A stretch of 64,000 nt of DNA from Bdellovibrionota bacterium (GTDB lineage Bacteria; Bdellovibrionota; UBA1018; CAIPTA01; JAALKR01). Shown here in pieces: positions 50,505 to 51,063 of this stretch (position 1 is its first letter; each line of letters begins with the position of its first letter). The stretch lies in contig CBDBMJ010000003.1 of the NCBI GenBank assembly GCA_965207455.1, positions 320,001 through 384,000 on the forward strand, in the 5' to 3' direction. The translations under genes and the position numbers were made by a program. The notes below the pieces were generated by a model. It was given only the letters and a program-made list of their open reading frames with translations. It did no database searches and was not told where the DNA came from.

Positions 50505-50973
50505 TTTATTCCACATTGTGTGTGGCGGAGAGGGAGGGCTCGACCCACTACAGGAAACCCCCTCCAGGGATTTCCCTGCGTAGGCTCCCCTACGCAATTT
50601 AAAAAATCATCAAGGATTTTTTTCCCCTCACTAGTTCCTCGCTAGCTCGGAACCAGCGCGGGTCATTGCTCCGCGTTCGAATCCCTCTGCTTATTTTGTA
50701 TGTGTGGGTGCTAGGGTTTGAAAGGTTCAACTACTCCACATTGTCATATTGGCGGAGAGGGAGGGCTCGACCCACTACAGGAAACCCCCTCCAGGGATTT
50801 CCCTGCGTAGGCTCCCCTACGCAATTTAAAAAATCATCAAGGATTTTTTTCCCCTCACTAGTTCCTCGCTAGCTCGGAACCAGCGCGGGTCATTGCTCCG
50901 CGTTCGAATCCCTCTGCTTATTTTCCTATGTGTGGGTGCTAGGGTTTGAAAGGTTTTTATTCCACATTGTGTG
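50505..50973 (-). repeat. tRNA-linked tandem repeat, two ~225-bp units plus a truncated third, each ending in the tRNA-Ser 3' terminus
   Basis: tggcggagagggaggg at 50523, 50750 and 50974 (the tRNA itself); units nearly identical. Confidence 0.95.
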
Positions 50974-51063
50974 TGGCGGAGAGGGAGGGATTCGAACCCT
51001 CGGTACGGTTGCCCGTACGCATCCTTAGCAAGGATGTGCATTCGGCCACTCTGCCACCTCTCC
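50974..51063 (-). tRNA. tRNA-Ser (GCT)
   Basis: GGAGAGGTGGCAGAGTGG...CATCC-TTGCTAA-GGATG, long variable arm, GTTCGAATCC...GCCA; 90 nt. Confidence 0.96.

What the first reader, a model, noticed from the sequence alone, without database searches (positions are those of the whole stretch)
50505..51063. Tandem structured tRNA-linked units ending in CCA and carrying an antisense T-arm: candidate ncRNA or mini mobile element
Seen: in tRNA sense, each 224-227 bp unit has a ~55-nt spacer, then GCAGAGGGATTCGAAC (complementary to the tRNA T-arm GTTCGAATCCCTC), then several hairpins, and ends with GTCGAGCCCTCCCTCTCCGCCA, whose last 16 nt equal the tRNA-Ser 3' end. The hairpins, in plus-strand notation, are cgcgg/ccgcg, gttcc/ggaac, aaaaaatc/gatttttt, tgcgtagg/cctacgca and cagg..ccc/ggg..cctg. 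The two ends of the ~170-nt core can pair with each other. tRNA-linked repeats are known in E. coli (tyrT), but I do not recognise this unit. Inference: a processed tRNA-like RNA, a switch on tRNA maturation, or a non-autonomous element regenerating its att site.
Basis: partly seen in the sequence, partly recalled or inferred. Interest (0 to 1): 0.75.

Follow-up and report, generated by a model that had tools for sequence, protein, structure and literature searches.

The report
tRNA-mirroring folded repeats behind tRNA-Ser
The two folded repeats behind this serine tRNA gene are copies of a gene-less element found behind many tRNA genes in this bacterium and its relatives, nearly always mirroring its own neighbour's tail; it has the layout of the long-unexplained tRNA-linked repeats of E. 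coli and likely spreads as a small mobile element whose ends are copied from each new host tRNA.

Summary
Two units (224 and 227 bp) follow tRNA-Ser(GCT); each has a spacer, a 13-nt inverted copy of the tRNA T-arm, a folded ~135-nt core and the tRNA's last 16 nt. The genome holds 24 matches at 10 loci, all behind tRNA genes or displaced tRNA ends. A model of the core finds 34 of 100 relatives. The inverted arm matches its own host's variable T-loop bases in 52 of 53 loci (chance mean 9) and in 14 of 15 fresh loci. In relatives it is often the end of a longer fold-back that turns at the tRNA's trailer hairpin, giving forward-inverted-core-forward order. The core covaries strongly, usually carries GGA loops, and matches no Rfam family. 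E. coli TLR/rtT repeats share the layout but not detectably the sequence. Best reading: a TLR-type non-autonomous element that enters at the T-loop and is copied into arrays. No mobilising enzyme, transcript or circle was shown, and reads did not confirm the tandem at this locus. This scan has reported this family twice in this genome and the same design in many others.

The parts
51090..51166 (-). tRNA-Arg(ACG), upstream in the same tRNA cluster
   Evidence: ARAGORN; Rfam
50974..51063 (-). tRNA-Ser(GCT), host gene; its T-arm (positions 53-65) is 50985-50997
50918..50973 (-). Spacer 1 (56 nt, unstructured); near-identical spacers follow tRNA-Trp and the first unit at tRNA-Ser(TGA)
   Evidence: local scores 97 and 92 of 112
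50902..50914 (-). Unit 1 inverted copy of host T-loop and T-stem (13 nt, perfect)
50766..50901 (-). Unit 1 folded core: long hairpin (~50852-50889), A/U hairpin (~50828-50850), CTACG/GTAG basal stem carrying a GGA-loop hairpin (~50771-50812)
50750..50765 (-). Unit 1 direct copy of the tRNA 3' end (positions 61-76, with CCA)
50691..50749 (-). Spacer 2 (59 nt; first ~20 nt differ from spacer 1)
50675..50687 (-). Unit 2 inverted copy of host T-arm
50539..50674 (-). Unit 2 folded core, identical to unit 1
   Evidence: 175 nt, 100%
50523..50538 (-). Unit 2 direct copy of the tRNA 3' end with CCA
50505..50522 (-). First 18 nt of a third spacer, cut off by the ISL3 end
   Evidence: (family D2)
49272..50505 (+). 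ISL3-family remnant bounding the array (inverted repeats 49272-49294 and 50483-50505; partial transposase ORF 49602-50282); a neighbour, not part of the unit
   Evidence: I1; NF033550, E 2e-35, below the curated cut-off
33575..33701 (-). Second, truncated copy in the window behind tRNA-Trp (33702-33778): same spacer type, antisense arm and left half of the core

Best explanation
The units are copies of a gene-less, TLR/rtT-type structured repeat that sits behind many tRNA genes and likely spreads as a non-autonomous mobile element whose two ends are copied from the host tRNA. Shown: the order is tRNA end (forward), trailer, host T-arm (inverted), conserved core, host 3' end (forward); both junctions fall in the T-loop (the inverted copy reaches T54, the direct copy starts at C56/G57). 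Inferred entry step: the folded single-stranded core is joined at a nick or break in the T-loop, capping the downstream DNA end like a hairpin. Copying through the cap, with a fold-back at the trailer or terminator hairpin, would give this inverted triplication. Inferred ageing: the inverted acceptor/CCA stretch erodes, while the T-arm part and the trailer hairpin are kept. Inferred spread inside this genome: unequal recombination between the direct repeats builds tandem arrays, and whole units (spacer plus core) move between tRNA loci. Likely RNA side: the unit is co-transcribed with the tRNA and cut out at its CCA end like rtT, and its GGA loops may bind CsrA. The enzyme is unidentified and probably acts in trans or is a host function.
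For: Census: 24 matches at 10 loci in the genome; 8 of 33 tRNA genes carry a unit within ~65 nt; the arrays with Gln and Asn ends lie beyond tyrosine-integrase islands in those tRNAs. Relatives: model R1 hits 34 of 100 and 19 of 150 across the phylum. 64 of 86 hit rows have a same-strand tRNA within 600 nt upstream. Host matching: T-loop 57-60 matches the own host in 52 of 53 loci, 28 tRNA types, against a permutation mean of 9.3 and maximum of 20; 14 of 15 fresh loci, mean 2.9. Fold-back: 28 of 59 relatives' loci have an inverted trailer copy (null 5%), 27 of these within 4 nt of the register a fold-back predicts. L060 is a perfect palindrome from the terminator hairpin through CCA to T54; L048, L083, L090, L091 and L100 are perfect to position 74-76. 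In 18 in-register loci identity is 0.91 at 57-65, 0.55 at 66-76 (null 0.43) and 0.88 at 77-88. Core: 89.7% of cells paired, 36 of 39 pairs with two-sided changes, 0 of 500 shuffles; 22 of 39 on an unfitted alignment; G-U 241 against A-C 37 on the tRNA-sense strand. Shared spacers between unrelated tRNAs in this genome.
Against: In this genome 0 of 7 spacers show the trailer fold-back, and spacers are shared between different tRNAs. So local moves were not fresh fold-backs, and the antisense arm must have been re-matched afterwards. The antisense arm fits the host tRNA better than the unit's own 3' copy does (12 against 3 discordant loci, p = 0.035; 6 of 7 here), which points to continuing selection or conversion rather than a one-time copy. 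No enzyme was found: no Y1 transposase or reverse transcriptase in this genome; Y1 transposase in 23 of 34 genomes with the element and 43 of 66 without; no shared gene downstream in 17 loci read. Native terminators start near CCA anyway, which could produce part of the register. Related genomes are not independent, so the p-values overstate.
Confidence: 0.55

Rival explanations
1. A selected RNA device: the antisense arm grips the T-arm of the precursor tRNA and the distal copy can replace its acceptor strand, so read-through past the terminator holds back or re-routes maturation; the freed core would act as a growth-linked CsrA sponge.
For: The antisense arm tracks the host better than its own partner strand. 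Computed capture of the T-arm: probability 0.5-0.6 here, above 0.5 in 40-43 of 51 loci; in the full unit the 5' acceptor strand pairs with the distal copy (0.996). 62 of 88 cores have two or more GGA hairpin loops. CsrA is present in 96 of 101 genomes. rRNA-linked TLRs bind CsrA (PMC8144298, Discussion read).
Against: No RNA data. The folding ignores tertiary contacts, modifications and folding order. The element is patchy (34 of 100) and often truncated, unlike a needed regulator. The 19 tRNA-operon TLRs of E. coli scored below 0.01 for CsrA binding (PMC8144298, passage). This window's copy keeps only one GGA loop.
Confidence: 0.2
2. Ordinary target-site duplication: a spacer-plus-core unit inserts just after CCA and duplicates the last 16-21 bp; the inverted arm is later perfected by template switching between quasi-palindrome arms.
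For: Spacers are shared by Ser(GCT), Trp, Ser(TGA) and Gln, and by Pro, Asn and fMet. No trailer fold-back in this genome. Host-specific direct copies at every locus.
Against: It does not explain why the inverted copy lies in register with the host trailer in 27 of 28 loci, nor its sharp stop at T54.
Confidence: 0.15
3. Shrunken remnants of tRNA-targeting integrative islands; the direct copy is attR and the core is arm or end sequence.
For: Nine tyrosine-recombinase matches in the genome. Islands sit in tRNA-Gln and tRNA-Asn. Right halves of the core close single cargo genes at Pro(TGG) and in L090.
Against: The islands displace intact arrays and have their own different ends. One core serves 28 tRNA types, whereas an attP carries one tRNA end. 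The inverted host copy and single-strand covariation are not island features. No hit in viral contigs or plasmids.
Confidence: 0.07
4. The tandem at this locus is an assembly artefact of a single real unit.
For: The two cores are 100% identical. Some copies elsewhere in this assembly look garbled (Met unit 1, Ser(GGA) unit 3).
Against: The two spacers differ. Tandem arrays occur at five other loci here, in relatives and in E. coli. It would not affect the family-level finding.
Confidence: 0.12

Closest known systems
E. coli tRNA-linked repeats (TLRs), including the tyrT-tyrV 178-bp repeats and RtT/RttR RNA (Rfam RF00391)
   Same: Behind tRNA genes, one to several copies per locus, ~50-60 nt spacer, inverted host T-arm, folded core, direct host 3' end with CCA. 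PMC8144298 (passages and Discussion part 1) gives 22 TLRs at 10 loci, an 18-19 bp repeated end, and no known function for the tRNA-linked ones.
   Different: No detectable homology: RF00391 finds nothing in this genome and R1 nothing in the tyrT locus. Most E. coli inverted arms stop at position 59 (the lys copies reach 53) and the direct copies start at 58-59; here the arm includes the whole T-loop. The identical end here is 16 nt. The passages read do not mention the inverted arm.
TwoAYGGAY RNA motif (Rfam RF01731)
   Same: Hairpins with GGA loops on a basal stem, variable copy number, proposed Csr binding and mobile-like spread (bioRxiv 10.64898/2026.09.22.753630, abstract and passages).
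   Different: No match in five element-rich genomes (no positive control rang) or in locus scans. Only 12 of 88 cores hold an AYGGAY. The passages read report no tRNA linkage or host-copied ends.
Inverted triplications by template switching (ODIRA, hairpin-capped intermediates)
   Same: Forward-inverted-forward order with fold-back junctions (PMC10766183, PMC4689423; search listing and abstract starts only).
   Different: Described in yeast and human DNA at kilobase scale; here ~25-60 bp, with one junction filled by a conserved foreign core at a fixed T-loop site.
tRNA-targeting genomic islands (tyrosine integrase)
   Same: Duplicate the tRNA 3' end; a T-loop crossover is a known target class (recalled, not from a call).
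   Different: No integrase or cargo in the unit; an added inverted host copy; one core at many tRNA types.

Membership tests
TLR class (as defined for E. coli) | Lies in a tRNA or rRNA operon, downstream of the gene | tested here: met
TLR class (as defined for E. coli) | 3' end identical to the last 18-19 bp of the upstream gene | tested here: inconclusive
   16 nt at this locus; 19 or more in many relatives (direct runs). Met in kind, shorter here.
TLR class (as defined for E. coli) | One to five copies per locus at several loci | tested here: met
   10 loci, 1-5 pieces each
TLR class (as defined for E. coli) | Transcribed with the operon and processed to a defined small RNA | not testable with these tools
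   No RNA run holds the unit; only contigs were available
RtT (RF00391) | Scores above the Rfam gathering threshold (45 bits) | tested here: not met
   No match at E <= 1; control E. coli rings; reciprocal R1 search negative
TwoAYGGAY (RF01731) | Covariance-model match | tested here: inconclusive
   0 of 5 genomes but no control genome rang; no hit
TwoAYGGAY (RF01731) | Two AYGGAY terminal loops | tested here: not met
   1 of 88 cores has two AYGGAY, 11 have one; this window's copy has none
REP/REPIN with RAYT | Y1 (RAYT) transposase in the genome, tracking the repeats | tested here: not met
   None in this genome; 23 of 34 against 43 of 66 in relatives
tRNA-integrated genomic island | Integrase gene between the regenerated tRNA and the displaced 3' fragment | tested here: not met
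   Units are 224-227 bp with no credible ORF; the islands at Gln and Asn are separate

The most novel reading that the evidence does not exclude
TLRs across bacteria are a distinct class of mobile hairpin caps: a folded single-stranded core is joined at T54-C56 of any tRNA gene by an unrecognised nuclease-ligase, the locus is rebuilt as a miniature inverted triplication, and the retained antisense T-arm then acts as a self-updating guide that grips the host tRNA. That would explain the origin of rtT and other TLRs, unexplained since 1978, and point to a new sequence-independent tRNA-targeting enzyme.
Probability: 0.25. Interest if true: 0.8.

Novelty: new variant of a known kind. Interest (0 to 1): 0.4.

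Why it matters
TLRs have been known in E. coli for decades without an origin or function. This family shows that the design recurs with an undetectably related core, and its many hosts make the mechanism testable: the junction positions (T54 and C56/G57), the fold-back register and the selective loss of the inverted acceptor stretch are concrete predictions. As an element it is not new in kind, and the scan has met it repeatedly.

Tried and rejected
Rfam scans of the window, of 12 loci and of 20 loci found tRNAs and the RtT control only; a CsrB match on L003 (19 bits, threshold 71) was rejected as chance. Promoter and terminator scans found 2 promoter-like sites (4.3 expected) and no terminator. 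Enzyme hunt: no Y1 transposase or RVT_1 in this genome; no association of Y1 with the element; no shared downstream gene in 17 loci. A core pattern found nothing in viral contigs; the core found nothing in plasmids; E. coli rtT hit no true phage record. Reads: one run (X1) holds the locus, as short-read contigs only. They cover the ISL3-spacer-CCA junction and the core-spacer 1 junction, but at 99% likeness no contig covered 50660-50791, which includes the letters unique to spacer 2; the tool warns that a hole proves nothing, so this neither confirms nor refutes the tandem. No joint indicating an excised circle was listed, but contigs drop rare forms. RNA runs matched only the tRNAs. Mutual exclusion of intact inverted and direct acceptor copies is weak (2/5/38/16; Fisher p 0.04, 0.10 and 0.045 at three thresholds) and is not relied on. 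The original rtT paper was not held; the CoCoNuT preprint had no rtT passage in the held version. Six paper searches found no description of the inverted arm or fold-back in TLRs; subscription journals and bioRxiv supplements were not visible and may hold one.

Full report
Observation. The window carries tRNA-Arg(ACG) and tRNA-Ser(GCT) on the minus strand. Behind tRNA-Ser come two units ending in CCA at 50750 and 50523, then 18 nt of a third spacer and the end of an ISL3 remnant. 175 nt are identical between the units; the spacers differ at their start. Each unit holds a perfect 13-nt complement of tRNA positions 53-65, a core that folds at z = -4.5, and the tRNA's last 16 nt. Rfam has no family for it.

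Census in the genome. The window lies in a 2.38-Mb, 3-contig genome. A profile search gave 24 significant matches at 10 loci (the same count), 16 of them near full length. Units follow 8 of 33 tRNA genes directly: Met, Arg(CCT), Glu, Pro(GGG), Trp and all three other-than-intron Ser genes found. The remaining loci end in the 3' end of tRNA-Gln or tRNA-Pro(TGG), and a short fragment follows an Asn end. The Gln and Asn copies lie about 10 kb beyond their tRNAs, past tyrosine-integrase islands, so they were displaced. Every complete copy ends in its own host's 3' end, and the antisense arm follows the host's T-loop: Met, Arg and Asn each show their own variant.

Relatives. A covariance model from 14 cores hit 34 of 100 relatives and 19 of 150 genomes drawn from the phylum. 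A pattern scan returned 13 named records, among them Bacteriovoracaceae, Oligoflexia, Oligoflexus, Bdellovibrionales and 'Deltaproteobacteria' MAGs, so the lineage is likely Bdellovibrionota; I did not place this genome directly. Of 96 matches in the loci fetched I analysed 86, leaving out 10 extra tandem or partial copies; 64 had a same-strand tRNA within 600 nt upstream. The unlinked rows I could see were mostly at contig ends, N gaps or displaced tRNA ends; the middle of that output was cut.

The ends are copied from the host. Of 59 first units, 5 were dropped for N or no anchor and 1 for a misplaced host anchor. In the remaining 53 (28 tRNA types) the inverted arm equals the host at positions 57-60 in 52; permutations give a mean of 9.3 and a maximum of 20. 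A fresh set gave 14 of 15 (taken from 21 rows, of which 5 had no tRNA call and 1 no anchor). The anchor itself (positions 54-56) matches by design. The inverted copy stops at T54 and the direct copy starts at C56/G57.

Fold-back. In relatives the antisense arm is often the end of a longer palindrome. 28 of 59 testable loci have an inverted copy of the host trailer (null 5%); 27 lie within 4 nt of the register expected from one fold-back, 7 exactly. In L060 the palindrome is perfect from the terminator hairpin through CCA to T54; five more loci are perfect to position 74-76. In most loci the acceptor/CCA part has been lost while both flanks remain (0.91, 0.55, 0.88; null for the middle 0.43). 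The order forward, inverted, core, forward is that of an inverted triplication whose second turn is filled by the core. Against a simple version: none of 7 spacers in this genome shows the fold-back, spacers are shared between unrelated tRNAs, and the antisense arm fits the host better than the unit's own 3' copy does (12 against 3; 6 of 7 here). Local spread therefore moved whole units, and the arm was re-matched by selection or conversion.

Core structure. A closing stem carries a long hairpin, a second hairpin, and a CTACG/GTAG stem with a third hairpin. On the model-fitted alignment 89.7% of cells pair and 36 of 39 pairs show two-sided changes (0 of 500 shuffles; slid controls 34-48%); the unfitted alignment gives 22 of 39. 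G-U outnumbers A-C 241 to 37 and the tRNA-sense strand folds better in 88 of 88 cores (the structure was derived on that strand). This fits an RNA or one DNA strand. 85 of 88 cores have a GGA hairpin loop and 62 have two or more; CsrA is in 96 of 101 genomes, so it does not discriminate.

RNA behaviour, computed only. The tRNA alone folds natively (0.997). With the antisense arm, T-arm capture reaches about 0.6; with the whole unit the 5' acceptor strand pairs with the distal copy. These equilibrium figures ignore tertiary structure and folding order. No transcript evidence was available.

Comparison. The E. coli tyrT repeats and the proK, lys, serX and arg TLRs show spacer or terminator, a short inverted T-arm, a core and an 18-19 nt direct end. 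PMC8144298 (passages and Discussion part 1) defines TLRs by the repeated end, reports no function for the tRNA-linked ones, and shows CsrA and Hfq binding for the rRNA-linked ones. bioRxiv 10.1101/2024.07.17.603846 (passages) calls rtT's mode of action unknown. Cross-searches between RF00391 and this family are negative. TwoAYGGAY (bioRxiv 10.64898/2026.09.22.753630, abstract and passages; PMC2864571, table row) is similar in loop type only. So it works like a TLR and meets the class layout, but is not a member of RtT.

Earlier findings. The scan has notes on this family at two other loci of this genome and on the same design in many other genomes. My TLR reading and the fold-back idea were noted before I saw them. 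They are leads, not independent support.

Verdict. A real, structured, dispersed TLR-type element with a new core family. The most likely history is entry at the T-loop with host-copied ends, then array growth and exchange between loci (0.55). The enzyme, the RNA and any function remain unshown. Interest 0.4.

Noticed in passing
window 49272-50505; G000 C3:316865, C1:1515920; also behind Phe, Thr(TGT), fMet and Glu: All three copies of one ISL3 end lie 10-19 nt past a tRNA-type CCA end, and the other end recurs in four more tRNA trailers: an ISL3 that seems to prefer tRNA trailers.
   Followed up: partly
G000 C3:34652-40659 (L005, L006); L090:950-1730: Right halves of the core, with a tRNA-like end, close units that each hold one small gene with a signal-peptide-like start; three paralogous starts at Pro(TGG). 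Cassette-like gene capture next to TLR halves.
   Followed up: partly
L043, L044, L045, L059, L068, L087, L111 spacers: The trailer hairpin in these relatives holds a further 60-100 nt palindromic insert in its loop, apparently a second small element that enters terminator loops.
   Followed up: no
G000 C1:1228340-1239018 and C1:1713502-1722940: Two related ~10-kb islands in tRNA-Gln and tRNA-Asn with tyrosine integrase, small DNA-binding genes and, at Gln, a DNA methylase and TIR-like ORFs (labels from reading the sequences, not scanned); similar left ends follow tmRNA, Cys, Asp, His and Thr(TGT).
   Followed up: partly
L125 (G211): The same core follows a tmRNA gene and mirrors its T-loop.
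   Followed up: partly
window 44363-46140 (-): Three-gene cluster: HTH protein with a phosphatase-like tail, a small protein and an anti-sigma-antagonist-like protein (weak hits only); possibly a partner-switching module.
   Followed up: no
G000 C1:133324-133483 and C1:1458170-1458350: Two copies look garbled (a duplicated hairpin arm; a tRNA end inserted in a loop): either rearrangements or assembly errors.
   Followed up: no
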